Source: an uncultured Bacilli bacterium | Lineage (GTDB): Bacteria > Bacillota_I > Bacilli_A > RF39 > UBA660 | Length of the DNA stretch: 50,351 nucleotides | Assembly: GCA_944363605.1 (NCBI GenBank) | Contig: CALVUM010000083.1 | Location: 1-50,351, forward strand | Reading direction: 5' to 3' | Shown here: positions 2-50,048 of the stretch, piece after piece | Position numbering within the stretch: the stretch's first letter is position 1 | Layout of the letters: each line of letters begins with the position of its first letter | Program-made: the position numbers and the translations under genes | Notes under the pieces: model-generated | The model's database searches: none | What the model was told of the DNA's origin: nothing | What the model saw: the letters and a program-made list of their open reading frames with translations, nothing else

Positions 2-1345
2 GAATTTACCGAACAAACAAGTTCAATCGCCTTAAATAACACTTATCCAATAAGTGATACAAAAGGACTTACGACAAATCCATATACGTTTACGATCAAA
101 AACACCTGTACAATTGATGCCTCATACAATGTAACCTTAAATACTTTAACTACGAATACAATGAATAAAAGTTGGCTAAAATATGCTATTTATAAAAGTA
201 CAGAAATAAAACCAACAACAGGAACAAATCTAGGAACAAATACAAACTATAATACCGCAACGGAAGAATTACAAATCACAAACTTAGATGAATCCATAAT
301 CATTGCGAGTGGCGAATTAAAACAAAATGAAAGTGTTACCTACAATTTTTACTTATGGATGGATGAAACAACCGGAAATGAAGCAATGAACACCAAATTC
401 GAAGGAAGTATCAACATAATAAGTTCAGCTACCAAAATAGAAACGGCAGCTGATACGATTCTAGCTAAAGGAGAAACAAGTGAACTTGCCTATGATGGAA
501 CAACAGATAATAATCTAAGATATATCGGAGCCGATCCAAATAATTATGTTTCATTCAATAATGAGTTATGGCGAATAATCGGAGTATTTAACAATATTGA
601 TGATGGAACAGGAATAAAAGAAACAAGATTGAAAATTATTCGAGCAGAACCGATTGGAAAATATAGTTGGGATAATAAAGCAAGTGGCACAGGATCTTCT
701 ACAAGTGATTATGGAAGCAGTGATTGGAGTGATTCCGCCTTACAACTTGTGCTAAACGAAGGAGCCTATTGGAATAGAACAACCGGAGAATGCCCATATG
801 GACAAAATGATGCGACAACAGCTTGTGATTTTAGTAGTACTGGCTTAACAGAAGAAGCAAAAAGTATGATAGGTACTACTTTGTGGAGTTTAGGAGGAGC
901 AAGTCATTCAAGTTCAAGTACTGGATTAGCAAGTCATTGGTACTCCTATGAAAGAGGAACAACCGTATATAGTGGAAGACCAAAAGAATGGATAGGAAAA
1001 ATCGGACTTATGTATCCTTCAGATTATGGCTATGCGACCAGTGGAGGAACTACAACGAATAGAGAAACCTGTTTAAATGCAGCATTATTTAATTGGAATT
1101 TCTCATCATATAGTGACTGTTATAGTAATGATTGGCTATACGATAGTTCTAACTACCAATGGACATTAACCCCCTACTTTGATAATAGCGCCTACGTGTT
1201 TTATGTGAACGACACTGGGAAAGTGTACAGCACCAATGCGAACTATACGGCTCCTGTCGCCTCCCCCGCCTTATACCTAAAAGCTAATGTAAAAATCAGT
1301 GGGGGAATAGGAACGAGTTCGGATCCGTATAGCTTAAGTCTATAG
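2..1345 (+). CDS. Predicted surface protein, 5'-truncated by the window edge; TasA/camelysin-like N-terminal region and C-type-lectin-like (DUF6273-like) C-terminal domain; candidate DGR target
   Basis: The frame is open from nt 2 (EFTEQTSSIALNNTYPISDTKGLTTNPYTFTIKNTC), aligning with AYPITNDEGMKTIPYTFTIKNTC of the 20114 protein, so ATG 161 is not the true start. Family motifs are NNYVSFNNELWRIIG, IGLMYPSDY, WTLTP and the GIGTSSDPY terminus. Confidence 0.7.
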   Translation, partial: EFTEQTSSIALNNTYPISDTKGLTTNPYTFTIKNTCTIDASYNVTLNTLTTNTMNKSWLKYAIYKSTEIKPTTGTNLGTNTNYNTATEELQITNLDESIIIASGELKQNESVTYNFYLWMDETTGNEAMNTKFEGSINIISSATKIETAADTILAKGETSELAYDGTTDNNLRYIGADPNNYVSFNNELWRIIGVFNNIDDGTGIKETRLKIIRAEPIGKYSWDNKASGTGSSTSDYGSSDWSDSALQLVLNEGAYWNRTTGECPYGQNDATTACDFSSTGLTEEAKSMIGTTLWSLGGASHSSSSTGLASHWYSYERGTTVYSGRPKEWIGKIGLMYPSDYGYATSGGTTTNRETCLNAALFNWNFSSYSDCYSNDWLYDSSNYQWTLTPYFDNSAYVFYVNDTGKVYSTNANYTAPVASPALYLKANVKISGGIGTSSDPYSLSL

Positions 1346-1360
1346 GAAAACGAAAAAAGG

Positions 1361-1389
1361 ACCCAGTCACGCATAAGAGTGACAGGGGT
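1361..1389 (+). repeat. GC-rich imperfect hairpin just downstream of the candidate DGR target
   Basis: ACCCAGTCACGC-ATAA-GAGTGACAGGGGT: GTCAC/GTGAC core with CCC/GGG flanks; no long U tract. Confidence 0.5.
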
Positions 1390-1656
1390 TTGGCTAGTTA
1401 TCCACTTTGATTATTTGATAAAAAGTAAAAGAAGTAATACCTTTGAATTTTTCTCGAAGTAATTAGAAAGCAGGTTTTTGTAAGAGAAAACTTATTTTTT
1501 AATAAGTATTAGGTTTTTAGGGACACGTTAATAAGTTTACGTTTAATAAAAAACGACAATAAAACTCATTATGCGACAAAACCTATCAAAAAAAGCTCTT
1601 GATAGAAAAGAAAAGAGTCTATAGAATATCTTTCCAAGAAACGGAGAGGTATTTTT

Positions 1657-2487
1657 ATGATGGAAACAAAAGAAAAATTTTATACGGCAAAGTATGACCG
1701 AGTTTTTAAAGAAATCTTCTTAAAAGAAGAAAACGAAGATTTATTAAAAGAACTCTTAAAAGTTGCTTTAAAAGAAGTTTCTATAAAAGAAATAAAAAAA
1801 GTGTTAAATGTTGAAAAGAATGTGAGGAATATTCATGTCCGAAGAAAATATGTCGATGTTTTATTAGAAACGGATATTGGCTTAGTCGGGATCGAGATCA
1901 ACAGTTCTGTAAAAGATTATCTGCATGTGAGAAATTTTGCCTATCACTGTGACACCTATGCCCATTACACCGAAACCGGAGAATACTACCGCGAAGATAT
2001 CTATATCATTCAAATTAATTTGACTTATGGAATTAAAAATGATGAAGAAATAATGAGGGTTTATGAAGTACAAGATAAGACCCAGAAAAAGTTTGTCGAA
2101 AACTTCCAGGTAATTGAATACAATATGGACAAAGTAATGGAGTATTGGTATACTAAAGACGAGAAAAAGATAAAGGAATACTTATATTTAATACTTCTTG
2201 ATTTAGGAAAAGAAGAATTAGAAGAAGTAGCAAAGGAAAGTCTGGAGGTAGAGAAATATATGAAAGATTTAGAAAAAGTGAATGAAGATCCAAGGTTCAG
2301 AGAATTTATGACCAAAGAAGAAGATGAAAGAAAAATCAGAAATACCGAATTAAAGGCTGCAGAAGAAAAAGGTTTGTTACAAGGAAAAATCGAAATTGCT
2401 AGGAAAATGCTTTTAAAAAATAAAAGTATAGAAGAGATTATGGAATTTACGAATTTAACTAAAGATGAAATTGACAAATTATTTTAA
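1657..2487 (+). CDS. Rpn family recombination-promoting nuclease / PD-(D/E)XK putative transposase
   Basis: N-terminal KYDRVFKEIF; VDVLLETDIGLVGIEIN nuclease core; C-terminal EEKGLLQGKIEIARKML...SIEEIMEFTNLTKDEI tail; RBS GGAGAGG. Confidence 0.85.
   Translation: MMETKEKFYTAKYDRVFKEIFLKEENEDLLKELLKVALKEVSIKEIKKVLNVEKNVRNIHVRRKYVDVLLETDIGLVGIEINSSVKDYLHVRNFAYHCDTYAHYTETGEYYREDIYIIQINLTYGIKNDEEIMRVYEVQDKTQKKFVENFQVIEYNMDKVMEYWYTKDEKKIKEYLYLILLDLGKEELEEVAKESLEVEKYMKDLEKVNEDPRFREFMTKEEDERKIRNTELKAAEEKGLLQGKIEIARKMLLKNKSIEEIMEFTNLTKDEIDKLF
2260..2487 (+). CDS. Putative intragenic small protein (Rpn C-terminal domain, 75 aa) from an internal start
   Basis: GGAGGT at 2244-2249, 10 nt upstream of in-frame ATG 2260; the same RBS/ATG geometry is kept in the downstream copy. 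Confidence 0.55.
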   Translation: MKDLEKVNEDPRFREFMTKEEDERKIRNTELKAAEEKGLLQGKIEIARKMLLKNKSIEEIMEFTNLTKDEIDKLF

Positions 2488-2612
2488 AAATGTAATAAAA
2501 CCTATCAAAAAAGTTCTTGAAGATAAGGTAATACTTATATTTAATTCTCATTGATTTAGGAAAAGAAGAGTTAGAAGAAGTATCAAAGAAAAATCCGGAG
2601 GTAAAAAAGTAT

Positions 2613-2840
2613 ATGAAAAATTCAGAAAAAGTAAATGAAGATCCAAGATTTAGAGAATTTATGACCAAAGAAGAAGATGAGAGAAAAATTAGAAATACGG
2701 AATTATATGCAGCAGAGGAAAAAGGATTGTTACAAGGAAAAATTGAAATTGCTAAAAACTTATTAGGTGAGCTTTCAATAGAAAAAATATCAGAAGTGAC
2801 TGGTTTAGAAATAGAAGAGATCAAGAAATTAGAGTCTTGA
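2613..2840 (+). CDS. Stand-alone Rpn C-terminal-domain small protein (75 aa), variant copy
   Basis: Nearly identical to 2260-2400 up to KIEIA, then a different tail; GGAGGT at 2597-2602, 10 nt before the ATG. Confidence 0.7.
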   Translation: MKNSEKVNEDPRFREFMTKEEDERKIRNTELYAAEEKGLLQGKIEIAKNLLGELSIEKISEVTGLEIEEIKKLES

Positions 2841-2847
2841 TTTTTTT
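2821..2847 (+). terminator. Possible intrinsic terminator
   Basis: TCAAGA...TCTTGA stem followed by T7. Confidence 0.4.
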
Positions 2848-2931
2848 CTTTGATAAATCCTTGTAAAGTGTTGTATATGCTACTTTCTTCCTTTTTGGTT
2901 TCATGGTATATTTAAAAGGCGGAGGGATGAT

Positions 2932-5163
2932 ATGAAGGAAGAATGGAAAAATTTTAAAGAAGGAGTTTGGATGAATGAAGTTAATGTGTCTGATTTCATT
3001 TTGAAAAACTATACAAAATATGATGATGATGAATCTTTTTTATCTGGAACTACAGATAAAACTGGAAGAGTTTTAAAAAAGGTTAATGATTTATTAAAAG
3101 AAGAATTAGAGAAGCTTGTGTTAGATATTGATGTTGATCACATGGCTTCTATCAATGCTTTTAAACCTGGATATATTAGTGAAAATGATGACGTTATTGT
3201 TGGACTTCAAACGGATGCGCCTTTAAAACGCATTGTTAATCCTTATGGTGGAATAAGGATGGTTTATCAAGAACTTGATGCTTATGGTTATAAATTAAAT
3301 GAAACAGTTGATAAATATTTTAATGAGTTTCGTAAAACTCATAATCAAGGAGTTTTTGATGCGTACCCTGAAAGTGTAAGAAAAGCTAGACATGTGGGAT
3401 TATTGACGGGTCTTCCTGATGCTTATGGAAGAGGAAGAATTATTGGTGATTACCGAAGAGTAGCTTTATATGGTATTGATTATTTGATGGAGCAAAAAAA
3501 GAAAGATTGGGATGAAGTTTTAGTCGGTCCAATGACTTCTCAACTTATTCAGTTAAGAGAAGATGTTTCGATGCAATATCGTGCTTTAGAAGAAATTAAA
3601 AAAATGGCTCTTTCTTATGGGTTTGATATTTCTAAACCAGCTAAAAATAGTCGTGAAGCTGTTCAATGGACCTATTTTGGGTATTTAGCAGCCGTTAAAG
3701 AAAATAATGGGGCGGCAATGAGTTTAGGAAGAGTAGATGCTTTTTTTGATATTTATTTTGAACGTGATTTAAAAGAAGGAACAATTACGGAAAGGGATAT
3801 TCAAGAAATTATTGATCAGTTTGTTATTAAACTTCGTCTTGTAAGACATTTAAGAACACCTGATTATGATGAGTTGTTTTCTGGCGATCCTACATGGGTA
3901 ACTTGTTCAATAGGTGGAATTACTGAAAAAGGCGAATCGATGGTTACAAAAACTTCTTACCGAATTTTACATACATTAACTAACCTTGATCCGGCACCTG
4001 AACCTAATATGACTGTTTTATGGAGCGAACATTTACCAGAAAATTTTAAAAAATATTGTGCTAAACTTTCTATTGAAACGGATTCTATTCAATATGAAAA
4101 TGATGATGTCATGCGTCCAATTTATGGGGATGACTATGCAATTGCTTGTTGTGTTTCTGCGATGCGTGAAGGAAAGGATATGCAATTTTTTGGCGCACGT
4201 TGTAATTTAGCTAAAGCCCTTTTATATTCGATTAATGGAGGTATTGATGAAATAAAAGGGGATTTAGTTATTGATGGATTTTCTAAAATAACGGATGAAG
4301 TGTTAGATTACGACAAAGTGCATGATGCTTATTTTAAAATGTTAGAAGAGGTTGCTTCTGTTTACAGTGATGCGATGAATGTTATTCATTACATGCATGA
4401 TAAATATGCTTATGAAGCTGGACAAATGGCTTTACATGATACATATGTTAGAAGACTTATGGCTTATGGAGTTGCCGGTTTATCTGTAGTAGCTGATTCT
4501 TTGTCAGCAATTAAATATGCTAAAGTTAAACCAATAAGAAATGAAGATGGTATTGCAGTTGATTTTGAAATAGAAGGGGATTTTCCTAAATATGGGAATG
4601 ATGATGATCGGGTAGATGATTTGGCTAAAGAAGTATTAGAAAAATTTTATGCTGAGCTTTCTAAACATAAATGCTACCGAGATGCAGTACCTACTTTATC
4701 TGTCTTAACGATTACTTCAAATGTTGTTTACGGAAGTAAGACAGGAAGTACTCCTGATGGACGGGAAAAAGGAGTTCCGTTTGCGCCTGGAGCCAATCCA
4801 ATGCACGGTAGAGATGAAAATGGCGCGATTGCTTCATTAAATTCGGTAGCAAAACTTAACTATGCGAATTGTTGTCGTGATGGAATATCTAACACCTTTA
4901 GTATTGTTCCTACTTCTTTAGGACATTCTAAGGAAGAACAAATCGAAAATTTAGTTTCTTTACTCGATGGATATTTTATTCAAGGTGCCCATCATTTAAA
5001 TGTTAATGTGTTAAGTCGTGAAACTTTAATTGATGCAATGGAACATCCAGATAAATATCCATTACTTACGATTCGTGTTTCTGGTTATGCAGTTCGTTTT
5101 AACCGGTTAACTCGCAAACAACAAGAGGAAGTTATCGCGAGAACTTTCCATGAAAAATTATGA
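2932..5163 (+). CDS. pflB: Formate C-acetyltransferase (pyruvate formate-lyase)
   Basis: [22 protein letters not shown]; IACCVS catalytic cysteines; TIRVSGYAV glycyl-radical motif. Confidence 0.98.
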
Positions 5164-5882
5164 TGGGAAGCGTTGACTCTATTGAAACATTTGGACTTGT
5201 CGATGGCCCCGGGATTAGAACAGTCGTTTTTTTCTCGGGGTGCATGTTACGTTGTTTATTTTGCCATAATCCAGAAATGTTTCAAAAAAAAGAAAAGAAT
5301 ATGGATGTAGATACTTTAGTAAAAAGAATTTTACGAAATAAGCCTTATTTTAAAAGAAATCAAGGTGGTGTCACATTTTCTGGAGGAGAACCTTTACTTC
5401 AAGTAGATTTTTTATTAGAAGTTTGCAAAAAGTTAAAAGAGGAAAATGTTCATATCGCTTTAGATACAGCAGGTGTGGGAATTGGTAAATATGATGAAAT
5501 TCTTTCTTTGGTTGATTTAGTTATTTTAGATATTAAGCATACCAATCCATTAGGATATGAAAAAATGACTGGGCATAAGATGAATGAAGTAGAGAAATTC
5601 ATTGTTTCTTTAAATAAAAGCGGAAAAGATGTTTGGTTAAGACAAGTTGTTGTACCTAATATAACGGATCAAGAAGAATATTTAGATTCTTTAGTGTATT
5701 ACATTCAAAAAATTAAAAATGTCAAAAAAGTTGAATTTTTACCTTTTCATCATTTGGGATTTGAAAAATATGAAAAGTTAGGAATAAAAAATCCCCTTTT
5801 ACATACAGAGGAAATGGATAAAATTCGTTGCGATGAACTTTATAAAAAATTTTGGGAAAAATATCAAAGTGAGGGAAAATAA
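5160..5882 (+). CDS. pflA: Pyruvate formate-lyase activating enzyme (radical SAM)
   Basis: [23 protein letters not shown] (CxxxCxxC), [10 protein letters not shown]; follows pflB. Confidence 0.96.
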
Positions 5883-6343
5883 TGCTTACTTTTCAAAGAA
5901 TTGATATAAATGACAAGACCATTGCTTTGTTAGGGAAGTTACGTTACGATGCTTATGCGATTGATTTTTTAAATTTTACTACAAAAGGAACAGAAACTTA
6001 CTATAGTCATGAGCTTAAAAATAAAAAGTATTTAGTTTATGGAGCTTATTTAGCAAATGAGTTGGTTGCAGCTTGTTATATATCTGATGTTTTTAATTCT
6101 TTATATATTGAACAAATATTTGTGAAAAAATCTTTACAATATGATCAAGAAAACAATTTACATATTGGTTCAAATCTTTTGAAATTTGTTTTAAAGAACC
6201 GTTTTCAAATCGAAGAATATTTTCAAAAGAAGTTTCAGGTTTGTAAATTATCCCCAGGATCAAAGGAAGCTCAAATGTTTTATGAAAAAATGGGTTTTAA
6301 GTTAGCTAATGAACAAATGGATATTTTTGAGAAAAAAATTTAA
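5882..6343 (+). CDS. GNAT-family N-acetyltransferase-like protein
   Basis: LYIEQIFVKKSLQ...HIGSNLL (motif A-like) and AQMFYEKMGF (motif B). Confidence 0.65.
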   Translation: MLTFQRIDINDKTIALLGKLRYDAYAIDFLNFTTKGTETYYSHELKNKKYLVYGAYLANELVAACYISDVFNSLYIEQIFVKKSLQYDQENNLHIGSNLLKFVLKNRFQIEEYFQKKFQVCKLSPGSKEAQMFYEKMGFKLANEQMDIFEKKI

Positions 6344-6452
6344 ACTATGAGGAAAAGGAAATTACTTTTCTTTTTTCTATGGTTGTTTTTTTAGCTATTT
6401 TATGATATAAAAAGTATAAATTGTTTTTTAAAATGATTATTGTATATAAAGG

Positions 6453-6902
6453 ATGTTTTTTATGGATATAAAGTATAATTTTGTTTGTCCAACATATAAA
6501 AAATTACTTCAATTAGAAAAACTTCGAATTGACGCCTATCAAGAACCTCCTGTGTGTGATGAAAGAAGGCATTATTTAGAAGCTTTGGAATCTGGAAGAT
6601 ACATTGCGATGACTTCTTCTTTTGATGATGAATTACTCGCTGGATGTTATATTTCCTCTTCTTTTTCTTCATTATCTATCGAGCAATTATTCGTGGCTTA
6701 TCGTTATCAAGAAAAAGGGTATTATTTAGGGAAAAGATTATTAATGGAAGTTTTACGTAATCAAAGAAAAATTGAAGAAATTTTTCAAATGGAATTTAGT
6801 GAATCTAGGTTATATGCTTCAACTTCAAAAGCTAGAAGAATCTATGAAAGTTTAGGATATCAAGGGAAGAAGGCCGATGTGTGGTTAATAAAAAAATTGT
6901 AA
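6453..6902 (+). CDS. GNAT-family N-acetyltransferase-like protein, paralog of the upstream gene
   Basis: LSIEQLFVAYRYQEKGYYLGKRLL and ARRIYESLGY; shares KLRxDAY and ELxAxCYIS with 5882..6343. Confidence 0.65.
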   Translation: MFFMDIKYNFVCPTYKKLLQLEKLRIDAYQEPPVCDERRHYLEALESGRYIAMTSSFDDELLAGCYISSSFSSLSIEQLFVAYRYQEKGYYLGKRLLMEVLRNQRKIEEIFQMEFSESRLYASTSKARRIYESLGYQGKKADVWLIKKL

Positions 6903-6915
6903 AGGACGTGATTTT

Positions 6916-8190
6916 ATGTTTATTGATGAAGTTAAAATGAAATTAGTTGCTGGAAAAGGTGGCGATGGTTGTACCTCTTTCCGTCGCGAAAAATACGTGC
7001 CAATGGGTGGTCCTGATGGTGGAAGTGGTGGTAAAGGTGGCGATATTGTTTTTTTAGTAGATGATAGCTTAACTACTCTTATCGATTTAAAATTTCATAA
7101 AATTATGAAAGCAACTAAAGGAGAAAATGGAAAAGGCAAAAATATGCGTGGGAAAAATGCTTTGGATGTTGTTATAAAGGTTCCAGCTGGCACGACGATT
7201 TACGATGAAGATACTGGGCTAGTTATTGCTGATTTAACGAAAAATGGCGAGAGTGTTGTTGTTGCACATGGTGGACGTGGAGGGCGTGGTAATACCGCGT
7301 TTGCCACTCATGAAAAACCGGCTCCAGCGTTTTCTGAGCTCGGAGAACCCGGAGAAATCCGTTATATTAAATGTGAGTTAAAAGTTATTGCTGATGTTGG
7401 GCTTGTTGGAATGCCTAGCGTTGGCAAAAGTACTCTTCTTGCTTCCGTTTCATCAGCAAATCCTAAAATTGCTGCATACCATTTTACGACATTAAGTCCT
7501 AATCTTGGGGTGGTAACTTTAAAAGATCGTCGTACATTTATTTTGGCTGATTTACCAGGAATGATTGAAGGTGCGAGTGAAGGAGTTGGATTAGGAACAA
7601 AGTTTTTAAAACATGCTTCTAGAACGCGCATTTTAGCTCATGTCATCGATATGGCTGGGACAGAAGGTAGAGATCCTATTAAAGACTATGAAATTATTCG
7701 AAAAGAAATTGTAAGCTATAGTGATGCTTTAGCGAACAAAAAGGAAATTATTGTTGCAAATAAAATGGATATGCCTGGATTTGCAGAAAATTTAAAAAGA
7801 TTTCAGGAAAAATATCCTGATAAAGAAATTTTTTCCATAAGTGCAATGAATCATGAAGGTTTAGAGCCACTTCTTACTCACTTACGTGATGTTTTAGAAG
7901 AATTAGGTGAGGAAAAAATTTATCAAGACGAGGAATATGAAAGTACGATCGTTTATAAATTTCAAAATGAAAAACCTTATACGATTACTAAAGAAGATGG
8001 AATTTGGGTTTTAAAAGGTGAAGAAATTGAGAAATTATTTAAAATGACTCGTTTTACTGAAGATGAGGCTGTTGCTCGGTTTGGACGTAGATTAAAAGGT
8101 ATGGGAATCGATGATGAATTAGAACGTTTGGGTGCTAAACCAGGTGATGAAGTTCAAATTTTAGATTATATTTTTGAATGGAAAGAATAA
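6916..8190 (+). CDS. obgE: GTPase ObgE/CgtA
   Basis: MFIDEV, Gly-rich Obg fold, ADVGLVGMPSVGKSTLL, YHFTTL, DLPG, NKMD; Firmicutes-type C-terminal domain. Confidence 0.98.
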   Translation: MFIDEVKMKLVAGKGGDGCTSFRREKYVPMGGPDGGSGGKGGDIVFLVDDSLTTLIDLKFHKIMKATKGENGKGKNMRGKNALDVVIKVPAGTTIYDEDTGLVIADLTKNGESVVVAHGGRGGRGNTAFATHEKPAPAFSELGEPGEIRYIKCELKVIADVGLVGMPSVGKSTLLASVSSANPKIAAYHFTTLSPNLGVVTLKDRRTFILADLPGMIEGASEGVGLGTKFLKHASRTRILAHVIDMAGTEGRDPIKDYEIIRKEIVSYSDALANKKEIIVANKMDMPGFAENLKRFQEKYPDKEIFSISAMNHEGLEPLLTHLRDVLEELGEEKIYQDEEYESTIVYKFQNEKPYTITKEDGIWVLKGEEIEKLFKMTRFTEDEAVARFGRRLKGMGIDDELERLGAKPGDEVQILDYIFEWKE

Positions 8191-8342
8191 ATGATGATTA
8201 CCTTCTTTTTTAACTCATGCAAAGAATTTTTATTAGATTTGAATCGTTATGTAATATAGATACTGAAATTGACCAATTTGAAGAGATGATTTTGGATTCA
8301 ATAATTCTTAGAACAGAAGAGATTTGGGCAAAAAAAGAACAT

Positions 8343-8675
8343 TTAGTCAGTCTCTTTAAATTTAATTATTGAGCCTATAACTAAATTTTTACTAGTATTT
8401 TTAGGTAATTCTAAAATACTAGTTTTTTCTTCGTTAGTACTTATTTTTACAATTTTGTTTTTGGGAACATTTCGATAAATATAAATGACTTGATTTTCTT
8501 TATTTAAGCCGATTACATCAATTTCTTCTTTCATAAAAAAAGTATGAATCGCTTTACAATTTGGAAACAAAATTCCTTCTTGAATGTTTTTCTTTCCCAT
8601 TAAACCAAATAGTCTTGTTTTGAAATCCGTAGCGTTTTTAATATTTATCATTCTATTATTTGTTTTTATTTTCAT
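8343..8675 (-). CDS. DUF192 family protein
   Basis: A..F.TRLFGLMGK, GILFPNCKAIHTFFM, IDVIGL, ILELP pattern. Confidence 0.8.
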   Translation of the reverse strand: MKIKTNNRMINIKNATDFKTRLFGLMGKKNIQEGILFPNCKAIHTFFMKEEIDVIGLNKENQVIYIYRNVPKNKIVKISTNEEKTSILELPKNTSKNLVIGSIIKFKETD

Positions 8676-8948
8676 ATTTTTGTTGCTCCTTTATAACAAT
8701 CCTATTATTGTTTACACAAAAGTATGATAAAATTTATTTATAATAATCATTTCTTTTTTATAACAATTATAATAATGAGCTTAATATTCTCTAAATTAAT
8801 TATATAATGTGGAGGATTTTAAAACAAGTGAACGTGATGATATTTATAAATTTTTTTAAAATACACAAGAAAAAATCGTTCTTTTTTTTTTCCTTGTCAA
8901 TTCACTTAGTTACTGATATAATGTTTTAGAGTAGGAGAGTGACTAAAA

Positions 8949-11210
8949 GTGAATGAAAATGATTTTACAGACACAATAAATGAACCGGATGTAGAAACCC
9001 TTGAAACTACGAAAGAAGTGCAAACTTTAAAAGATTTGTCTATGACAGCAATAAATAATATTGAAAGTGAGTATCAAGCAGATTATGATGAAGAAATGGA
9101 TGATGCAGATTTAATTTTTAAAACTGTTGTTGATACCAAAGAAGAAATGAAAAAGGATCAAACAGATGATTTTTTAGATAAATCTCAAAAAGAAAGCTGG
9201 ATGAAAAAACTTCAAAAAAAATGGCATGATTTAGATAGAAAGAAGAAAATACTCTTTATTCTTTTGTTTGTTCTTATTTTGCTATTAATAGGAGTTGGCT
9301 TGTTTTTTCTTTTTTATAGAGAAGAAAAGCCTTTAGAAGAAACACCTAATGTTGTTTTAGAGATGGGGGCATATCGATATGAAAATGGCAACTTGGTGTT
9401 TTTAAATGATGATGAAGAGATAGGTCGTTATGAATGTGAAAATAAAGATGAGAAGTTATGTCTAATGGCTAATTTAACTCAAGACGATGATTTTTCGGAG
9501 CCTAAGCGAGTGGATCAAGATGGTAATCCGCTTATACTTGTTAGTAATATTTATTTTGATCGTTTTGTTTTTATCGTTGATCATAAAGATGAGAATGATA
9601 AGAGTATTAAAATCTATGATTTAGAAGAGGAAAAAATTTTAAAAACGGTTTTTGCGGTTAAGACTTATGAGGATTATGATAATTTAGTCGTTTTAAAGAA
9701 TGAAAAAAGTTTATATGGGTTGGAACAAATTACAGAAAGTGGTTTGAAAACCGTTATTCCTTATAGTTATGATGCTTTAGGAATTTTACCGGATCAAGAA
9801 GAAGTAAATTTGTTAGCTGTTCGGAAAGATAATAATTCTTATTTAGCAGATATAGGTAATAAAATTTTGACAAAAGCTTTTAATACTTCAATTGTTTATG
9901 CAACTAAAACGCATATTGTTACAAAAGATGAAGATGATAAATATTATGTTTATGATTATAATTCGACTTTATTAAATGAAGATGGATATGATTATATTGT
10001 TCCATTAGATAATGTATATTTATATGTTTTAAATAATCAGTTATATGTTAGCGATTACAGTGGAAATAAGATGATTCCTGCTCCTTATGATTTAAAAAAT
10101 ACTGCTTATAATCCAATTGAAACGTATGAAAATTATCAACTTGTTCGTACAGAGAAAGCTTTTCAATATGCTCTTGAAGGGGATCGGTTAAACCTTGATA
10201 TATATGATAAAGAGGATTATGAGAATTTCTCAGTTAATTTATTAGAAGGAGCCTTATCTAGTAAACTTGCCTTTATGAATTATTTTAATAAGACTTTGTA
10301 TTTTTATTCTGATGAAGAGAAGGAATCTTTACTTGGAACGTATTCTTGTAAAACAGAAAATTCAGTAGATAAGAATACCACTTCTTTAAATTCTTGTGGA
10401 CTTGCAACAGATTCTTTTTATCACGAGATTACTGGTAATACAATTGAAATGGATCTTAGTGAAGAAGTCGGAGCAATTCCTTTGATTAATAAACAATATA
10501 TTTTTATTAAAGATGGGGAGACAATTTATTTATATGATTTAGTGAATAAAAAGGAACTTGCTCCTTATGAAAGTGTCGATACTTCTTCTTATACGAATAT
10601 GAATAGTCTAACTTTTACGAATATTAGTGAACTTTATTTTATTGCAAAATCTAAAACAAGTGGTAAATTTGGAGTTGTCAAAATTACGGCTGATGCTGTA
10701 AGCCCGGTTTTTCCGTTTGAATTTTTAAGCATAAAACAACTTGGAGAGTATTATGTTTTAGAAAGCGATGAAGGATATGCTTTATATAATATTGAAGGAA
10801 AGAAGCTTACAGAAGATAAAAATAGTCCAATTGTTGATTATTTAGAGGTGGATAATACTCATAAATATTTGAAAACTTATAAAGATAATATGTATTTTGT
10901 TCATACATTTGATAACGAGGTTTCTAATAATTCTTATAATTATATTGAATTATATAATGAATATTATGCTGCCGTTTTAAATAAACGCGTTCATGTATAC
11001 AATTATGAAAATGAAGAACTCACTATTACAGAAGAAGGGGAAAGTGGCCTAGAAATCTATCTTGATAATTATTATGGTAACGGAACAAAAGCTTTCCGAG
11101 TTACGTTTGATAATGATAAAATTTATGTAGAAATTGGAAATACGAACAATACCTATACAATGGGAGGTGACTTCCCAAAAGAAAGAGATCGTGATAAAGA
11201 TGAATCCTAA
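8949..11210 (+). CDS. Single-pass membrane protein with acidic N-terminus and beta-rich repeated extracellular domain
   Basis: Acidic first ~80 aa, KKK then a hydrophobic TM segment, Tyr-rich beta-like repeats; RBS AGGAGAG before GTG. Confidence 0.6.
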   Translation: MNENDFTDTINEPDVETLETTKEVQTLKDLSMTAINNIESEYQADYDEEMDDADLIFKTVVDTKEEMKKDQTDDFLDKSQKESWMKKLQKKWHDLDRKKKILFILLFVLILLLIGVGLFFLFYREEKPLEETPNVVLEMGAYRYENGNLVFLNDDEEIGRYECENKDEKLCLMANLTQDDDFSEPKRVDQDGNPLILVSNIYFDRFVFIVDHKDENDKSIKIYDLEEEKILKTVFAVKTYEDYDNLVVLKNEKSLYGLEQITESGLKTVIPYSYDALGILPDQEEVNLLAVRKDNNSYLADIGNKILTKAFNTSIVYATKTHIVTKDEDDKYYVYDYNSTLLNEDGYDYIVPLDNVYLYVLNNQLYVSDYSGNKMIPAPYDLKNTAYNPIETYENYQLVRTEKAFQYALEGDRLNLDIYDKEDYENFSVNLLEGALSSKLAFMNYFNKTLYFYSDEEKESLLGTYSCKTENSVDKNTTSLNSCGLATDSFYHEITGNTIEMDLSEEVGAIPLINKQYIFIKDGETIYLYDLVNKKELAPYESVDTSSYTNMNSLTFTNISELYFIAKSKTSGKFGVVKITADAVSPVFPFEFLSIKQLGEYYVLESDEGYALYNIEGKKLTEDKNSPIVDYLEVDNTHKYLKTYKDNMYFVHTFDNEVSNNSYNYIELYNEYYAAVLNKRVHVYNYENEELTITEEGESGLEIYLDNYYGNGTKAFRVTFDNDKIYVEIGNTNNTYTMGGDFPKERDRDKDES

Positions 11211-12370: not shown

Positions 12371-12389
12371 AAAAGATGGAAGTGAGAAT

Positions 12390-17127: not shown

Positions 17128-17576
17128 ATATTATGCCAAGTAGAGAACAAAAATTTTCACTTGGTTTTTCTTTATGTAAATTTAAATTCATTTTTAGCTA
17201 TTGAATGTTTTTCTACTTCTCCTTTTTTATTGATTTTACAAGCTTTTGAAAAAAGAACATAAAAAGATATGAGCTGTAAGTATATTGTTACTTCCTGTCC
17301 TATTAAAGTGCAGTATGGGGTTAATAGAAAGGAGCACAAAGTTCTTAATATGTTAGCTATTTGGGTAATTGTTGTAACTTTTAAAGCTGAATAATTTATT
17401 TGTAAATAATCTTTTTTTTATAAAAAGGATACAAAATTAAAAATAAATATTAGAGTGATTCGTAGATTCGGTTTTAATGTTGATACTTTAGCAAAAATTG
17501 ATATTAGTCAAGATCAATTTAATTACAAAAAACACCATAAAAACGCTTTATTATTATCTATCATTCTAATTATGAT

Positions 17577-18113
17577 AAACAAAATATCTTAGATAAGGGA
17601 TACCATGAATATATAGCTGACCCAGGATTCTGTAATGACCGAAGTTTATCAACCAGAAGTAATAACGGCGCTGGAGTGCAAGCAACAGATAAAAATACCT
17701 TTTATGCTGGATTTTCAAGATATTATGAAACCCATAATCCTACCTTAACCTGTCCAAATGAAGAAAACGATTTATTTACTACCAGTACATCAAATGTTGG
17801 AAATAAATCTTTGACTTATTCAATCGGCTTAATCACAGTTGATGAACTAATGTTAGGAGGACTTGTTGATGGGTATTTAAATCGTTTATCTTACACTTAT
17901 TCTTCGCATAATTATTGGACCATGTCGCCTAGGGAATTCCAATCAGAGAATACAGCAGCTATTGGGTTTCGCTCGTACACGTCGGGCATGGCTAATAGCA
18001 GCTGGATTACCGACAGTATTGGTGTCCGTGGAGTCATCAACTTAAAACTAGATGTTGAGATATCTAATGGTATTGGTACATCAAATGATCCGTTTGTCGT
18101 TCAAACGACTTAA
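17577..18113 (+). pseudogene. Start-less 3' fragment paralogous to the C-terminal ~175 aa of the 20114..22123 surface protein
   Basis: In-frame homology begins at KQNILDKGYHEYIADPGFCNDRSLS (17577) and runs to DPFVVQTT-stop; no signal peptide or convincing RBS. Confidence 0.8.
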
Positions 18114-20113: not shown

Positions 20114-22123
20114 ATGCTAGAAAAAGTAAAAGAAAATAAAAAAGCGATTCTAATTCTTATAATATTCTTAATTACTTTATGTGTAGGAATCAGTTATGCT
20201 TATTGGCAAATTAGTTTTAAACAGATAGTTGAAAATAAAGTGGCTACTAGTTGTTTGAGCATCGAAATCTTAGAAGAGTCAGATGGAATAAAACTAGAAA
20301 AAGCTTATCCAATAACGAATGATGAAGGAATGAAAACGATACCTTATACATTTACGATAAAAAATACGTGTAATACTTTTCTTGATTATGAAGTATCCTT
20401 AGGAATGTTAGATACGACTACTTTAAATAGTCAATATGTCGCGGTTGTTCTAGATTATAATGAAATCAAAACATTAGATACCTATGAAAGGACAACCATT
20501 GATGGGTATAAAGAAGGAAGAATACTTCAAAAGGGAAGTTTATCACAGGAAGATGAAGTTACCTATAATTTAAGACTATGGATGGATTATAATACACCAA
20601 CATTAGAAGAAACTATGAATCAAGAATTTATAAGTCAAATAGTTGTAACCGCGACTCTTGGAAGTTATAGTCCAGTAGAACTTGGATTTACACGACTTTC
20701 TGATGCCATATTAGTAAATGAATATCAAAGTACCGATGTGGAAAGCGCCAAAACTAAAATAAAAAGTAAACAAGCCCCAGATTTTAGTAAAACAGCTCCA
20801 ATCATTGATTGGGAAGAGAATCATGGAAGTAATCAAACTGTCATTGGATCAAGAATGCCTCATCCTGATTTGGTAGGAAATGGAGAATCTTATACAGTGA
20901 ATTTAACAAATGAAAATATTTTACCAACGATAGGAACAGGATATGAGTTTAATCAAGAAACTGGGAAATATACCTTAACCAATTATCAATATGTGGATCC
21001 AACAACCTTAGATTATAGTAATGACTATTATTACTGTGGGTCCGGCTTTAATACGAATGCAAATGATGTGATTATTCCATATGGTAGTTATGCAAATTGT
21101 ACGACCATATATAAAATAACAAGTGCAATAAAGGGTGATGATGCAATTGAAACAAATAATGGAACAGTGATTAAAACTAAACTTTATCGGATTACTGCCT
21201 ATCAATATGGCCAAACAGAAAGAGAAAGTGATAAATCCGATAAAGGATTATATGTTATGACAGATGATTATGGCGAAAGCTACTATTATCGAGGAAGTGT
21301 TAGTAATAATTATGTAAAATTTGCTGGGTACTATTGGAGAATCGTAAGAATTAATGGTGACAGATCAACAAGGCTTTTATATGCCGGAGAAACGGCTAAG
21401 GCAACAGGAAATGAACTGAACATGAATTTAACAGATAGTAGTTTAGGATATGTTAATCAAAGAACATCCCGATTTAGTAGTCAAAATGTAAATCCGGCAT
21501 ATGTTGGATATATGTATGGAAGCGTTTTAAATAGTAGTTATGGTGAAACGAATGCGAATGAATTTGATTCAGAAATTAAGAAATATTTAGATAGCTGGTA
21601 TAAACAAAATATTTTAGATAAAGGATATAATGAATATGTCGCGGATTCTGGATTCTGTAATGATCGAAGTTTATCAAGTGGAGATGGAGTACTGACAGAT
21701 AAAAACACTTTTTATTCTGGATATCAAAGATATTATGACAAACATAGCCCGACCTTAACTTGTTCAAATAAAGAAAATGATTTATTTACTACAAGTACAG
21801 CAAATATAGGAAATAAAGCTTTAACTTATCCGATAGGATTAATTACCGTAGATGAACTAATGTTAGGAGGTCTTGTTGATGGGTATTTAAATCGACTATC
21901 TTATACTTATTCTTCTTATAGTTATAGAACTATGACGCCTAGCCGTTTTAGTATTAGTGATGGGTCAGCTTATGAATTCGTTGCAAATTCGTCTGGTTAT
22001 GCAAGCTACGACCGAGTTACCACTAACTATGGCGTTCGAGCAATTATTAACTTAAAATCGGATGTAGAAATTAGTGGTGGTATTGGGACTGCGAATGATC
22101 CATTTGTAATTCAAACAACTTAA
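20114..22123 (+). CDS. Predicted surface protein with SipW-type-like signal peptide, TasA-like N-terminal region and C-type-lectin-like (DUF6273-like) C-terminal domain
   Basis: Hydrophobic leader ending GISYAYW; YYYRGSVSNNYVKFAGYYWRIVRINGD, FCNDR, YPIGLITVDE, GVRAIINL, GIGTANDPF. Confidence 0.75.
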   Translation: MLEKVKENKKAILILIIFLITLCVGISYAYWQISFKQIVENKVATSCLSIEILEESDGIKLEKAYPITNDEGMKTIPYTFTIKNTCNTFLDYEVSLGMLDTTTLNSQYVAVVLDYNEIKTLDTYERTTIDGYKEGRILQKGSLSQEDEVTYNLRLWMDYNTPTLEETMNQEFISQIVVTATLGSYSPVELGFTRLSDAILVNEYQSTDVESAKTKIKSKQAPDFSKTAPIIDWEENHGSNQTVIGSRMPHPDLVGNGESYTVNLTNENILPTIGTGYEFNQETGKYTLTNYQYVDPTTLDYSNDYYYCGSGFNTNANDVIIPYGSYANCTTIYKITSAIKGDDAIETNNGTVIKTKLYRITAYQYGQTERESDKSDKGLYVMTDDYGESYYYRGSVSNNYVKFAGYYWRIVRINGDRSTRLLYAGETAKATGNELNMNLTDSSLGYVNQRTSRFSSQNVNPAYVGYMYGSVLNSSYGETNANEFDSEIKKYLDSWYKQNILDKGYNEYVADSGFCNDRSLSSGDGVLTDKNTFYSGYQRYYDKHSPTLTCSNKENDLFTTSTANIGNKALTYPIGLITVDELMLGGLVDGYLNRLSYTYSSYSYRTMTPSRFSISDGSAYEFVANSSGYASYDRVTTNYGVRAIINLKSDVEISGGIGTANDPFVIQTT

Positions 22124-48268: not shown

Positions 48269-48362
48269 TTTTCTCTTCCTTTCTAATCATCATGTAGTAT
48301 AAACATATTTTTATTAAAAATTATGGTAATAGTTACTATGGAAAAAAATGGTTTATCTAAAA

Positions 48363-48383
48363 AAATAGCTTATGTAGCTATTT
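48363..48383 (-). terminator. Intrinsic terminator
   Basis: AAATAGCT-TATGT-AGCTATTT with an A run on the + strand. Confidence 0.5.
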
Positions 48384-48386
48384 GAA

Positions 48387-50048
48387 TTATTGAAGTACAA
48401 TCCGAAAACTTGTCCAAACTAAAGCTCTTCCGTCTCTATTATAAAAATTAAATATTCCAGCATATTGGCCTTGGATTCTTTCTGCTCCACGATAATACCA
48501 AGGACTTCTATTATTTATAGATGTTCCGCCGTCCAGATACCAACTCCCTATCACATAAGTTGTAGGAGAACCTATAGAAGTAAAGTCACTTGTAGCAAAC
48601 GGTCCCATTTCACCTGTTGCATCTCCTAAGATTCTTCGTTGATATTGTGTATATTCTGTAGCATAGATGTAAGTGTCATAATACTTCTTATCTGGAAAGT
48701 CATAACCAGTTGTTAAAGATGTAAGTTCTTGAGTATCATCGTCACATGTTGGGCAACCAAATGTTCCGTTGAAACCTGAATTATATAAACTATTTCTTCC
48801 ACTCATTGGTTGTCCGTTTTCGTCTAATACAACTCCCATCACATATTCCCATGAGCCACCCGCCATATCGTAAATTCCTGTGATATTTCCAGTAGTGCTT
48901 GAGAGAACGCTATTGGGATAAGCTCTATTACACGTGCCATCGTTACACATTATGTTACATTCCAAATGAACTGAACCACTAATTCCACAGGTTGGCTCCT
49001 CATTAGCTTGGTAACCTGTTATATAGCTAGAATTATTGTTCAATCTAATATTTGTTGCACTTCCATAGGAACTATGCTGTAAATAGGCTACTGCTCCCCA
49101 CTCTGTATTTTTCATCATATGACTGTCTAGTTTTCGGTGATAATTATATGAACTATAAAACGCATTTGCTATTTGTATACCTCGCCAACTATAAACATTT
49201 GGTTTGATAATCATTTTACTTGAATCATTAATATTTTGCACAGCTTCAGTTGAACTAGTCGCCCCATTATATCCGGTTTCAAATTTACCAACCCAGAATC
49301 CGGTACTTGGAATACTTAGGAATGCTGGATGAGTCATATAATCTCCAATTTGGCAATTTCCACTTGCTCCACTTGTCATTGGGGTGGTACATTCACTTTC
49401 TTTATTATCATTTGTATCATAATCGCCAAAAATCAAAGGAATCTCATGTACTTTTTTTTCATTTATTTCCGTTAAACTGTCATAGTTTCCTAAATCCCAT
49501 AACTGATATCGATATTTCGGAATCCAGACAAAATAGGACTCTATTGCATCCTCTGGTATCGTATCTCCGGCTAAATAATCTTCACTTTCATCAAATAATA
49601 GGACTGCATTCGCCCAGTTCTTATTCGCATAACTATACCACTCACTTCCAATATCAGCTTTTTTGACAGTTCCATCTTCATCGATCGTTACGGGTATTAA
49701 AGGTTCTTCTAGTACGGGATCAGCACCGTTTAAAAGGGCTTCGCTGTAACCTGTTTTAAAATATAGCTCACATTTGGTTTTGTATTCACTCATATTTTTT
49801 ATTATCGGACTCCAGGTTTTATAATCCCAAATAATATAAGCTTCATTTGTGCAACTACTTCTTGTTTCATCAAATATGTTTCCTCCTTCTTGAGGAATTT
49901 TATTCGTTTTTTCATCATTTAAATAAATAGCTAATTCTATATTTTCCTTTATCGAATATTCTTTTATTTTCTTTTCTCTTTGAAGTAAGATGATCAAGCA
50001 TACCGATATACACATAATTAATATAAAAAGAATAAAACGCTTTTTCAT
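48387..50048 (-). CDS. Membrane-anchored surface protein with C-terminal FGE-type C-type-lectin-like domain
   Basis: N-terminal TM; FVWIPKY, HPAF, GFWVGKFE, NTEWGAVAY, GIYDMAGGSWEY, terminal SFRIVL. Confidence 0.75.
   Translation of the reverse strand: MKKRFILFILIMCISVCLIILLQREKKIKEYSIKENIELAIYLNDEKTNKIPQEGGNIFDETRSSCTNEAYIIWDYKTWSPIIKNMSEYKTKCELYFKTGYSEALLNGADPVLEEPLIPVTIDEDGTVKKADIGSEWYSYANKNWANAVLLFDESEDYLAGDTIPEDAIESYFVWIPKYRYQLWDLGNYDSLTEINEKKVHEIPLIFGDYDTNDNKESECTTPMTSGASGNCQIGDYMTHPAFLSIPSTGFWVGKFETGYNGATSSTEAVQNINDSSKMIIKPNVYSWRGIQIANAFYSSYNYHRKLDSHMMKNTEWGAVAYLQHSSYGSATNIRLNNNSSYITGYQANEEPTCGISGSVHLECNIMCNDGTCNRAYPNSVLSSTTGNITGIYDMAGGSWEYVMGVVLDENGQPMSGRNSLYNSGFNGTFGCPTCDDDTQELTSLTTGYDFPDKKYYDTYIYATEYTQYQRRILGDATGEMGPFATSDFTSIGSPTTYVIGSWYLDGGTSINNRSPWYYRGAERIQGQYAGIFNFYNRDGRALVWTSFRIVLQ

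What the first reader, a model, noticed from the sequence alone, without database searches (positions are those of the whole stretch)
2..50048. Dispersed repertoire of lectin-like surface proteins with variable C-termini and no local reverse transcriptase
Seen: four loci (2-1345, 17577-18113, 20114-22123, 48387-50048) encode predicted exported proteins or fragments ending in C-type-lectin-like motifs. The first three are one family (IGL..../WT..P/G.GT..DP). Their codon usage looks more A-ending than core genes (by eye). No RT or AAC-rich template repeat was found in 50 kb. Known: DGR targets usually carry the variable region in a C-terminal CLec fold, and remote targets exist. Inference: a chromosome-wide adhesin/fibre diversification system, driven by a trans-acting DGR and possibly combined with cassette recombination and promoter phase variation. 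The SipW-type leader with a TasA-like N-terminus would suggest display on fibres. This is the best candidate for an undescribed system in the window.
Basis: partly seen in the sequence, partly recalled or inferred. Interest (0 to 1): 0.8.

Follow-up and report, generated by a model that had tools for sequence, protein, structure and literature searches.

The report
Retroelement-targeted surface lectin gene repertoire
The four genes belong to large families of lectin-tipped surface proteins of an uncultured chicken-gut bacterium whose binding tips are rewritten by a known mutagenic retroelement encoded elsewhere in the genome, and the copies in this window look like remote or frozen targets, one of them behind a poly-G on/off promoter.

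Summary
The four loci are real. They belong to three related, modular families (here famA, famB, famC). None matches Pfam or NCBIfam, yet each has thousands of metagenomic relatives. The window has no RT or template, but the genome holds two diversity-generating retroelement (DGR) cassettes on other contigs. One is on C86 beside a famA gene and is intact: 21 of 22 TR/VR mismatches lie at template adenines. The other is on C35 beside a famC gene, and its RT frame is broken.

- **Locus 1:** its variable region (1168-1269) matches the C86 template at 80 of 102 bases, with 15 of 22 mismatches at adenines. It keeps the cassette's post-stop flank, but a transposase-like repeat sits where TR-MSL-avd-RT should be.
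- **Loci 2 and 3 (famB):** famB is a proven DGR target family in related genomes (11/11, 19/20 and 14/14 mismatches at adenines), including trans targeting. No famB template is in this 69.5%-complete assembly. Locus 2 is a 3' fragment.
- **Locus 4 (famC):** it shows little DGR signature. It has a G9 tract in a promoter module with 11 clear copies genome-wide.

The variable regions of loci 1, 3 and 4 are identical across independent assemblies, so ongoing diversification is unproven. This is known biology in a new lineage.

The parts
2..1345 (+). famA gene, cut at its 5' end by the contig end. It encodes a TasA/camelysin-like N-terminal domain plus a lectin-like C-terminal domain.
   Evidence: The full-length form is P0246, 494 aa.
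1168..1269 (+). Variable region of locus 1. It is homologous to the template repeat at C86:12594-12695.
   Evidence: 80 of 102 bases identical, without gaps. 15 of 22 mismatches lie at template adenines (Fisher P = 0.001). GC is 0.52 against 0.35 in the rest of the gene.
1346..1475 (+). Post-stop element shared with the DGR cassette flank on C86, C84 and C75. Homology ends about 25 bases before the point where the template starts on C86.
   Evidence: 80.1% of 191 bases against C86; alignment. Its predicted hairpin is not exceptional (z = -1.6).
1548..2487 (+). Multi-copy Rpn/PDDEXK_2 transposase-like repeat. It sits where TR-MSL-avd-RT follow on C86.
   Evidence: TIGR01784 scores 63.9 bits (cut-off 52.1) and PF12784 scores 50.8 bits. 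Copies of 1548-1817 occur on 7 other contigs.
17559..18113 (+). famB 3' fragment, a probable pseudogene. Its variable-region equivalent is 17923-18032.
   Evidence: A 2092-base contig of run X2 covers 17836-19927 with no difference.
20114..22123 (+). famB gene, 669 aa. It has a membrane anchor, a TasA-like beta-sandwich, and a DUF6273-like lectin domain. Its variable-region equivalent is 21933-22042.
48387..50048 (-). famC gene, 553 aa. It is probably FGE-sulfatase-like at the C-terminus. Its variable-region equivalent is 48393-48548 and carries little DGR signature.
50130..50215 (-). Poly-G promoter module: TTGACA, T, G9 (50184-50192), then TATACATGA and TAAAAT, followed by a 10-bp palindrome and a T run. 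The G tract ends 136 bases upstream of the famC start codon.

Best explanation
**The proteins.** The window carries four dispersed members of a modular superfamily of membrane-anchored surface proteins of an uncultured, small-genome chicken-gut member of the Bacilli. Each has an N-terminal anchor or leader with a beta-sandwich domain. This domain is TasA/camelysin-like in famA and famB. Each also has a C-terminal lectin-fold binding domain: DUF6273-like in famA and famB, probably FGE-sulfatase-like in famC.

**The mechanism.** The last 35-50 codons before a short constant tail are the variable region of a DGR. An Avd/MutS-like/RT cassette copies a template repeat into cDNA, misreads adenines, and writes the cDNA over the variable region.

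**Shown**
- Two such cassettes lie on other contigs of this genome.
- The C86 cassette has a clean adenine-only TR/VR pair.
- Locus 1's variable region is a second match to that template.
- famB genes are written in cis and in trans in related genomes.

**Inferred**
- Locus 1 is an orphaned target. It lost its own cassette to a transposase-like repeat and was, or still can be, written from the C86-type template.
- Locus 3 was written by a famB template that is missing from this incomplete assembly.
- Locus 2 is a dead 3' remnant.
- Locus 4 is a frozen paralog whose expression is switched by slippage of a G9 tract in its promoter.

Present-day mutagenesis of the window copies is not shown.
For: **DGR machinery in this genome**
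- The genome holds 3 RVT_1 genes, none in the window.
- C86 carries target, TR, MutS_I-like gene, Avd and RT. C35 carries target, MutS_I (44.3 bits), Avd (NF033474, 82.5 bits, cut-off 80) and RT.
- TR C86:12594-12695 against its own VR: 22 mismatches, 21 at template A (P = 1.6e-10).

**Locus 1**
- The same template against window 1168-1269: 22 mismatches, 15 at A (P = 0.001). In positions 16-102 it is 14 of 16.
- The template is closer to each VR (22 mismatches each) than the two VRs are to one another (29 mismatches).
- The post-stop flank is shared with the cassette.

**famB in relatives**
- TR/VR mismatches at A are 11/11, 19/20 and 14/14.
- A remote copy matches another template unit at 12/13.

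**Variation and composition**
- Variation among homologs peaks in the terminal segments: 2.04 bits against a mean of 1.09 for famB, and 2.26 against 1.07 for famC.
- The famA consensus is variable where the template has Asn codons.
- The variable regions of loci 1-3 are GC-rich and A-poor.

**Fold and poly-G**
- Fold evidence.
- The genome has 23 G/C runs of 8 or more, against 0.48 expected.
Against: **Locus 1**
- 7 of its 22 mismatches to the template are not at adenines. Five of them lie in the first 15 bases. It could therefore be the scar of a lost sister cassette and not a present target.

**No other templates found**
- Only 1 of 39 family 3' ends finds a template with at least 75% of mismatches at A.
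- No famB template-like unit exists in the assembly. All 7 motif matches are variable regions inside genes.
- famC cassettes give no clean pair.

**No variation between near-identical variants**
- P0002 with 3 variants: 4 variable positions, 0 in the VR.
- P0003/P0123: 4 positions, 0 in the VR.
- P0246/P0366: 1 position, 0 in the VR.
- The C86 target itself: 1 position, 0 in the VR.

**Other points**
- Variable regions of own-genome famB paralogs also differ at third codon positions, so they do not descend from one template.
- The C35 RT frame is broken.
- Avd and MutS_I on C86 score below their cut-offs.
Confidence: 0.7

Rival explanations
1. All four loci are being diversified now, chromosome-wide, by a trans-acting DGR, and they are displayed on SipW/TasA-type fibres.
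For: - DGR cassettes exist in the genome.
- Trans use of template units on remote famB copies is seen in a relative.
- Remote targets are documented in print: 45 of 372 DGRs.
- There is a TasA-like N-terminus and there are SipW genes.
- Assembly consensus cannot show rare variants.
Against: - The variable regions of loci 1, 3 and 4 are unchanged among protein variants that differ elsewhere.
- The locus 2 fragment is identical in a contig of another study and lacks an N-terminus.
- No template for famB or famC matches.
- Locus 4's terminal segment has near-background composition.
- Fibre formation was not tested.
Confidence: 0.15
2. Locus 1 is purely a fossil. It once had its own TR-MSL-avd-RT, a sister of the C86 cassette. 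That cassette wrote its variable region and was then deleted or replaced by the Rpn-like repeat. The C86 template does not act on it.
For: - The cassette's 5' flank is retained up to about 25 bases before the template position. Then the multi-copy Rpn/PDDEXK_2 repeat begins.
- C84 shows an intermediate state, a template remnant with internal deletions.
- There are 7 non-adenine mismatches, including one in the GC-rich 3' end.
- The variable region is static.
Against: - The 3' 87 bases differ from the C86 template almost only at adenines (14 of 16).
- The GC-rich 3' end differs by a single base.
- Other famA paralogs' variable regions do not align to this template at all, apart from a 48-base weak match on C81.
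Confidence: 0.35
3. The retroelement is not involved for the window copies. The variable tips are the product of ordinary paralog divergence, positive selection, and recombination of 3' cassettes.
For: - 3' fragments of the families are scattered in the genome.
- Some 90%-identity clusters show whole 3' ends swapped, including the constant tail. For example, P0264 against P0381 has 17 of 40 variable columns in the VR plus tail changes.
- famB paralog variable regions differ at all codon positions.
Against: - The template match with adenine bias at locus 1.
- Adenine depletion and GC enrichment confined to the variable regions of loci 1-3.
- Clean TR/VR pairs for the same families in this genome and in relatives.
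Confidence: 0.07

Closest known systems
MSL-containing DGRs ('Architecture D' of Wu et al., Nucleic Acids Res 2018, PMC5758913; passages read). The paper says one is in the Legionella DGR.
   Same: - A small MutS-domain-I protein plus Avd plus RT with a template repeat beside a C-terminal variable region.
- Adenine-specific TR/VR differences.
   Different: - The host is an uncultured gut lineage of Bacilli.
- The targets are large paralog families with no Pfam match.
- On C35, template-like cassettes lie upstream of the target, and the RT frame is broken.
- I did not see the paper's supplementary tables, which may list relatives.
Treponema denticola DGR with remote TvpA-type targets (PMC5758913 passages; PMC4891356 passages; PDB 2Y3C).
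   Same: - One cassette with several non-adjacent paralogous lectin-fold targets.
- TvpA aligns to the famB C-terminal domain (Z 5.1, 145 residues).
   Different: - That system has an HRDC accessory gene and not MSL.
- Here only one window copy matches a template in the assembly, and with 7 non-adenine differences.
DUF6273 (C-type-lectin-like) DGR targets of gut phages ('tentaclins', PMC10743442, passages), and the DUF6273 N-terminal domain of the Thomasclavelia ramosa IgA peptidase (PDB 9QA6; PMC12237041 and PMC12402451, passages).
   Same: - The famB model's residues 192-669 align to 9QA6 residues 32-305 (Z 12.9, rmsd 3.6, 17% identity).
- DUF6273 matches 3 of 7 famA/famB homologs scanned weakly (18.5-22.8 bits).
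- The variable region forms surface beta-hairpins (strands 604-634).
   Different: - All DUF6273 scores are under the 23.5-bit cut-off, and the window's own proteins score nothing.
- These are cellular proteins, membrane-anchored, with a TasA-like N-terminal domain. They are not phage tail proteins and not a peptidase.
Poly-G contingency loci of Campylobacter, Neisseria and Haemophilus, and homopolymer promoter switches of mycoplasma surface lipoprotein genes (recalled, from no call).
   Same: - A separate class of G9-G12 runs in a 29% GC genome: 23 runs of 8 or more against 0.48 expected.
- They lie in a promoter spacer or just after the signal anchor of surface-protein genes.
- In-frame (G9) and out-of-frame (G10, G11) states are seen among famC paralogs.
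   Different: - Length variation at one and the same locus was not measured here.
- With G9-G11 the -35/-10 spacer is 19-21 bases by my count, so most copies would be 'off'.
- The promoter consensus scan did not list the site.
TasA/camelysin (Pfam Peptidase_M73), exported by SipW in Bacillus subtilis. The TasA fibre is PDB 8AUR.
   Same: - Peptidase_M73 matches the first ~100 residues of two famA homologs above its cut-off (25.9 and 26.2 bits against 22.5).
- 8AUR aligns to model residues 43-205 (Z 6.6, 127 aligned).
- Three archaeal-type signal peptidase genes score above their cut-off.
   Different: - The window's own proteins give no Peptidase_M73 match and no match to any signal-peptide model.
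- Z 6.6 is within the range of common beta-sandwiches.
- No evidence of fibres exists.

Membership tests
DGR target (variable protein) | A variable region paired with a template repeat that differs from it only at template adenines. | tested here: inconclusive
   - Locus 1: 15 of 22 mismatches at A, and 14 of 16 in the 3' 87 bases.
- Loci 2-4: no template in this 69.5%-complete assembly.
- The families as such: met on C86 (21/22) and in relatives (11/11, 19/20, 14/14).
DGR target (variable protein) | A reverse transcriptase with Avd (and here MSL) next to the template, in the same genome. | tested here: met
   C86 and C35 cassettes. Avd on C35 scores 82.5 bits against a cut-off of 80. The RTs were typed by RVT_1 plus synteny, not by a DGR-specific RT model. 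The C35 RT frame is broken.
DGR target (variable protein) | The variable region lies on a C-type-lectin-type fold at the C-terminus. | tested here: met
   famB: Z 12.9 to the DUF6273/lectin-like domain of 9QA6 and Z 5.1 to TvpA. famA follows only by homology of the last ~80 aa. famC is inconclusive: the model has pLDDT 45.8, and FGE-sulfatase is weak in 7 of 44 homologs.
DGR target (variable protein) | Within-population diversity confined to the variable region. | tested here: not met
   0 of 9 variable positions among near-identical variants of the three window proteins lie in the VR. These are assembly consensus sequences, so rare variants are not excluded. At greater distance, variation does peak there.
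DGR target (variable protein) | A target-recognition element (GC-rich 3' end of the VR plus a nearby hairpin). | tested here: inconclusive
   The GC-rich end GTCGC(T/C)TCCCCCGC is shared with one difference. A conserved post-stop element is present, but its fold is not exceptional (z = -1.6).
Pfam DUF6273 | A score at or above the gathering cut-off (23.5 bits). | tested here: not met
   There is no hit for the window proteins. Homologs score 18.5-22.8 bits. The fold-level likeness is strong.
TasA/camelysin (Peptidase_M73) with a SipW-type leader | A Pfam or NCBIfam match of the N-terminal region, and a SipW peptidase in the genome. | tested here: inconclusive
   The window proteins give no match. 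2 of 7 homologs scanned score above the cut-off. TasA fibre aligns at Z 6.6. 3 SipW-type genes are present. Cleavage and fibres are not testable here.
Phase-variable contingency locus (homopolymer slippage) | A long homopolymer in a promoter spacer or reading frame, far beyond chance. | tested here: met
   G9 at 50184-50192 lies between TTGACA and TAAAAT. The genome has 23 runs of 8 or more against 0.48 expected. The motif ATTGACRT+G9 occurs in 9 of 47 genomes of the genus and 0 times in the reversed control.
Phase-variable contingency locus (homopolymer slippage) | The tract length varies at one locus within or between populations. | not tested
   The reads were laid on 1-20000 only. Copies at different loci carry 9-12 G, and famC paralogs are in frame or out of frame accordingly.

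The most novel reading that the evidence does not exclude
This small-genome gut lineage may run a three-layer surface-variation system on one modular gene superfamily.

1. DGRs whose single RT serves tandem banks of 4-8 different template units. Different units rewrite different remote paralogs.
2. Poly-G switches, in promoters and just behind the signal anchor, that turn individual paralogs on and off.
3. Exchange of whole 3' ends between paralogs.

In that reading the window's copies are silent or standby members of the repertoire and not fossils.
Probability: 0.3. Interest if true: 0.7.

Novelty: new member of a known kind. Interest (0 to 1): 0.45.

Why it matters
- It gives a function and a mechanism to protein families that are very large in gut metagenomes and carry no annotation. 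The searches found 1,639 relatives of famB among 7,997 scored candidates, 7,810 of famC among 8,000, and 7,948 of famA among 7,995.
- It shows that a bacterium with a genome of about 1.5-2 Mb spends at least 30 genes on variable, lectin-tipped surface proteins.
- These proteins are served by retroelement mutagenesis and by poly-G switches. That is how such uncultured commensals may keep up with changing host glycans, phages or immunity.
- For annotation, it warns that 'orphan' variable lectin genes far from any RT are usually remote or retired DGR targets and not a new system.

Tried and rejected
**Family and structure searches**
- Pfam and NCBIfam on the four proteins found nothing.
- PDB sequence profiles of famB and famC found nothing useful.
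- Foldseek with the whole famB model gave no match at E <= 0.001. The listed rows are chance.

**Reads and contigs**
- Contigs of four chicken-gut runs were laid on 1-20000. None of the 40 difference rows shown lies in 1168-1269, but 260 rows were not shown. This says nothing about locus 1.
- Loci 3 and 4 were outside the 20-kb limit.

**Template searches**
- The N-rich cassette upstream of the C35 target is not the template of that target. It has 38 mismatches in 150 bases, only 18 at A.
- No famC pair is clean.
- A genome-wide AAC-codon scan gave 6 stretches, and only the C86 template is credible.

**Other ideas rejected**
- The pilin-like gene at 19311-19676 is not a partner. It has no consistent neighbour relation in the genome or in 71 related loci.
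- A-ending codon bias is rejected.
- The post-stop hairpin as a special structure gives z = -1.6.

**Poly-G module searches**
- A metagenome pattern scan for the module gave 0 matches.
- A first genus pattern was too strict.

**Literature**
- I searched for tandem multi-template DGRs.
- Only survey remarks turned up, on DGRs with 2 or 6 templates (PMC6642488, passages).
- I therefore do not claim that such arrays are unknown.


Full report
**What is there.** The window is a whole contig (C83) of a 1.52-Mb, 88-contig, 69.5%-complete assembly with about 29% GC. The four ORFs are at the stated coordinates.
- Locus 1 (2-1345) is cut by the contig end. An identical full-length protein of 494 aa, with an N-terminal membrane anchor, is in the protein collection (P0246).
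- Locus 3 (20114-22123, 669 aa) and locus 4 (48387-50048, minus strand, 553 aa) begin with hydrophobic anchors.
- Locus 2 is only the last ~185 codons of a locus-3-type gene (66.8% of 184 aa). It has stops upstream and no N-terminus.

None of the four matches Pfam or NCBIfam at E <= 0.1, apart from one meaningless 13-bit row.

**Families and copy number.** I call the families famA (locus 1), famB (loci 2 and 3) and famC (locus 4).
- tblastn over the genome finds C-terminal-domain copies on about 8 contigs for famA, 8 for famB and 15 for famC, plus several short 3' fragments.
- The families are modular. famA and famB share the N-terminal domain (36.9% of 141 aa) and the last ~80 residues (38% of 81 aa).
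- The famA-type target on C86 has a famC-type N-terminus.
- Each family has thousands of unnamed relatives in metagenomes.
- The 71 famB loci fetched from species genomes come almost all from uncultured gut 'Bacilli', 'Tenericutes' or 'Mycoplasma sp. CAG:956' assemblies of chickens and people.
- The stretch 12300-22200 is held by chicken-gut runs of 9 studies.

**Folds.**
- The famB model is good (pLDDT 84.0, pTM 0.77). Foldseek on the whole model found nothing.
- The all-against-all aligner put the N-terminal domain of the Thomasclavelia ramosa IgA peptidase far ahead (9QA6_A: Z 12.9, rmsd 3.6, 201 aligned, model 192-669).
- The authors describe that domain as a C-type-lectin-like core with large decorations (PMC12237041, passages). 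A second group labels it DUF6273 (PMC12402451, passage).
- DUF6273 is a known DGR-target domain in gut phages (PMC10743442, passages). It matches 3 of 7 famA/famB homologs scanned just under its cut-off.
- TvpA (2Y3C) also aligns (Z 5.1).
- Model residues 43-205 align to the TasA fibre (Z 6.6). Peptidase_M73 (camelysin/TasA) matches two famA homologs above its cut-off. The genome has three SipW-type peptidase genes.
- For famC the model failed. A weak FGE-sulfatase match in 7 of 44 homologs and one protein-atlas hit (score 0.95) are leads only.

**The retroelement.**
- No RT lies in the window. The genome has three.
- The one on C74 is retron-like (NF038233, 227.9 bits, just under its 235 cut-off).
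- On C86 the order on the minus strand is: famA-type target, a 140-base flank, template repeat (12594-12700), MutS-domain-I-like ORF, Avd-like ORF, RT.
- The template translates as an Asn-rich string. It differs from the target's variable region at 22 of 102 positions, 21 of them template adenines (P = 1.6e-10).
- On C35 a famC gene is followed by a MutS_I gene (44.3 bits), Avd (82.5 bits, cut-off 80) and an RT split over two frames.
- This is the MSL-plus-Avd architecture of Wu et al. 2018, who also document non-adjacent targets for 45 of 372 DGRs (passages).
- RTs of this kind are matched in 19 of 24 other genomes of the genus. Low-scoring rows there may be other RT types.

**Locus 1.**
- The C86 template has exactly one further strong match in the genome: window 1168-1269. 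It is 80 of 102 identical and ungapped, with 15 of 22 mismatches at adenines (P = 0.001).
- Five of the seven other mismatches lie in the first 15 bases. In positions 16-102, 14 of 16 mismatches are at adenines. That would pass the published rule of fewer than four non-adenine changes (PMC6642488, passage).
- Template to either variable region is 22 differences. The two variable regions differ by 29, as expected if both derive from the template.
- After the stop codon the window shares about 130 bases with the C86, C84 and C75 loci. This shared stretch ends about 25 bases before the template position. Then a multi-copy Rpn/PDDEXK_2 transposase-like repeat begins.
- C84 keeps a template remnant with deletions.
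- Locus 1 is therefore an orphaned target. Whether it is still written in trans or is a scar of its own lost cassette cannot be told from this evidence.

**Loci 2 and 3.**
- Of the 71 related famB loci, 4 have a DGR-type RT within 6 kb. Three of them show clean pairs, with 11/11, 19/20 and 14/14 mismatches at adenines.
- In two of these the RT is preceded by a tandem bank of template-like units: 8 in L021 (period ~334) and 6 in L015.
- In the genome of L015, a famB gene on another contig (L012) best matches a different unit (12 of 13 mismatches at A). A third (L011) matches at 12 of 16.
- So famB is written in cis and in trans in relatives.
- In this assembly the famB end motifs occur 7 times, always inside genes and never as an A-rich unit.
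- The window's two famB variable regions are GC-rich and A-poor. Paralog variable regions differ at all codon positions, so they do not share one template.

**Locus 4.**
- Its terminal segment is 74 of 150 bases different from the C35 cassette.
- It has near-background composition.

**Is anything varying now?**
- Among distant homologs, variation peaks in the terminal segments.
- Among near-identical sequences the window proteins differ only elsewhere: 0 of 4, 0 of 4 and 0 of 1 variable positions are in the variable region.
- The C86 target's single difference, and clusters of 4, 5 and 11 members, are equally silent.
- Four famA clusters do show concentrated differences (17 of 40, 22 of 92, 16 of 70 and 18 of 69 variable columns). 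These often come with a changed constant tail, which points to exchange of whole 3' ends.
- A 2,092-base contig of another study covers the locus-2 variable region without a difference. One T>C at 18049 is seen in two runs.
- These are consensus sequences, so low-level mutagenesis is not excluded.

**Phase variation.**
- Upstream of locus 4 the minus strand reads TTGACA-T-G9-TATACATGA-TAAAAT. A 10-bp palindrome and a T run follow.
- By my count the spacer is 19 bases with G9. The consensus scan, which allows 16-18, did not list it.
- G/C runs in the genome are bimodal: 198, 23, 1, 1, 5, 8, 8 and 1 runs for lengths 5 to 12. That gives 23 of length 8 or more against 0.48 expected.
- Eleven runs sit in this full promoter module, counting C5, whose -35 end reads ...GACATA and so fell outside the pattern. 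C40 carries the -35/poly-G core only. Nine of the module copies lie just upstream of family genes.
- Six runs lie just behind the signal anchor of famC paralogs. There G9 is in frame and G10 or G11 is out of frame: 1 on, 4 off, 1 at a contig end.
- ATTGACRT plus G9 occurs in 9 of 47 genomes of the genus, 11 times here, and never in the reversed control.

**Earlier notes of this scan.** These were looked up after my own analysis. They describe the same families in other genomes: poly-G switches, frozen copies, an MSL-type DGR, and tandem template banks. They agree with what I found and did not change it.

**Verdict.** The core of the interpretation, a DGR acting from elsewhere, is right for the families and plausible for locus 1. 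Present activity, fibres and novelty as a system are not supported. This is a new, rich example of known mechanisms in an uncultured lineage.

Noticed in passing
L021:8080-10530 and L015:2589-4225 (related genomes); own genome C57:24669-25139 continuing into C35:13476-14148: Tandem banks of 4-8 different template-like units lie beside one DGR RT. In relatives, the adjacent variable region and remote paralogs each match a different unit with adenine-only differences. In this genome the famC bank lies upstream of the target. One unit is 97% identical to the target's own variable region, and no clean pair is seen.
   Followed up: partly
own genome C29:14716, C53:17845, C66:9177, C75:35000, C80:17887, C81:8454: G9-G11 tracts lie directly behind the signal anchor of famC paralogs. 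G9 keeps the frame, and G10 or G11 break it (1 in frame, 4 out of frame, 1 at a contig end).
   Followed up: yes
window 50140-50172 (minus strand) and 10 further copies in the genome: A conserved 10-bp palindrome ATTATCTTAG-GAAA-CTAAGATAAT followed by a T run lies between the poly-G promoter and the gene. It could be an operator or a leader attenuator. Nothing explains it yet.
   Followed up: no
window 1548-2487 and copies on C74, C38, C79, C21, C29, C75, C13: A multi-copy Rpn/PDDEXK_2 transposase-like element is often found at contig ends. In the window and on C75 it abuts the truncated DGR flank.
   Followed up: partly
own genome C74:1436-2389 (minus strand): A retron-type RT (NF038233, 227.9 bits against a 235 cut-off) sits next to an unannotated 373-aa ORF. 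It is unrelated to the DGRs.
   Followed up: no
window 19311-19676: A lone type IV pilin-like gene (N_methyl motif, ComG-like) lies upstream of the famB gene. It has no consistent link to the family.
   Followed up: yes
window 19850-20055: A short frame between the pilin-like gene and the famB gene looks by eye like the C-terminal remnant of a protein of the kind encoded at 12357-13646. If so, the famB gene's original upstream region has been disrupted, and no poly-G module is present there (likeness judged by eye, not tested).
   Followed up: no
protein clusters P0264/P0381, P0310/P0399, P0311/P0403: Proteins that are at least 90% identical carry entirely different variable regions together with a different constant tail (GGEGTESSPYQLSL-type against GGDGSEGNPYTLSL-type). 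This suggests exchange of whole 3' ends between paralogs.
   Followed up: partly
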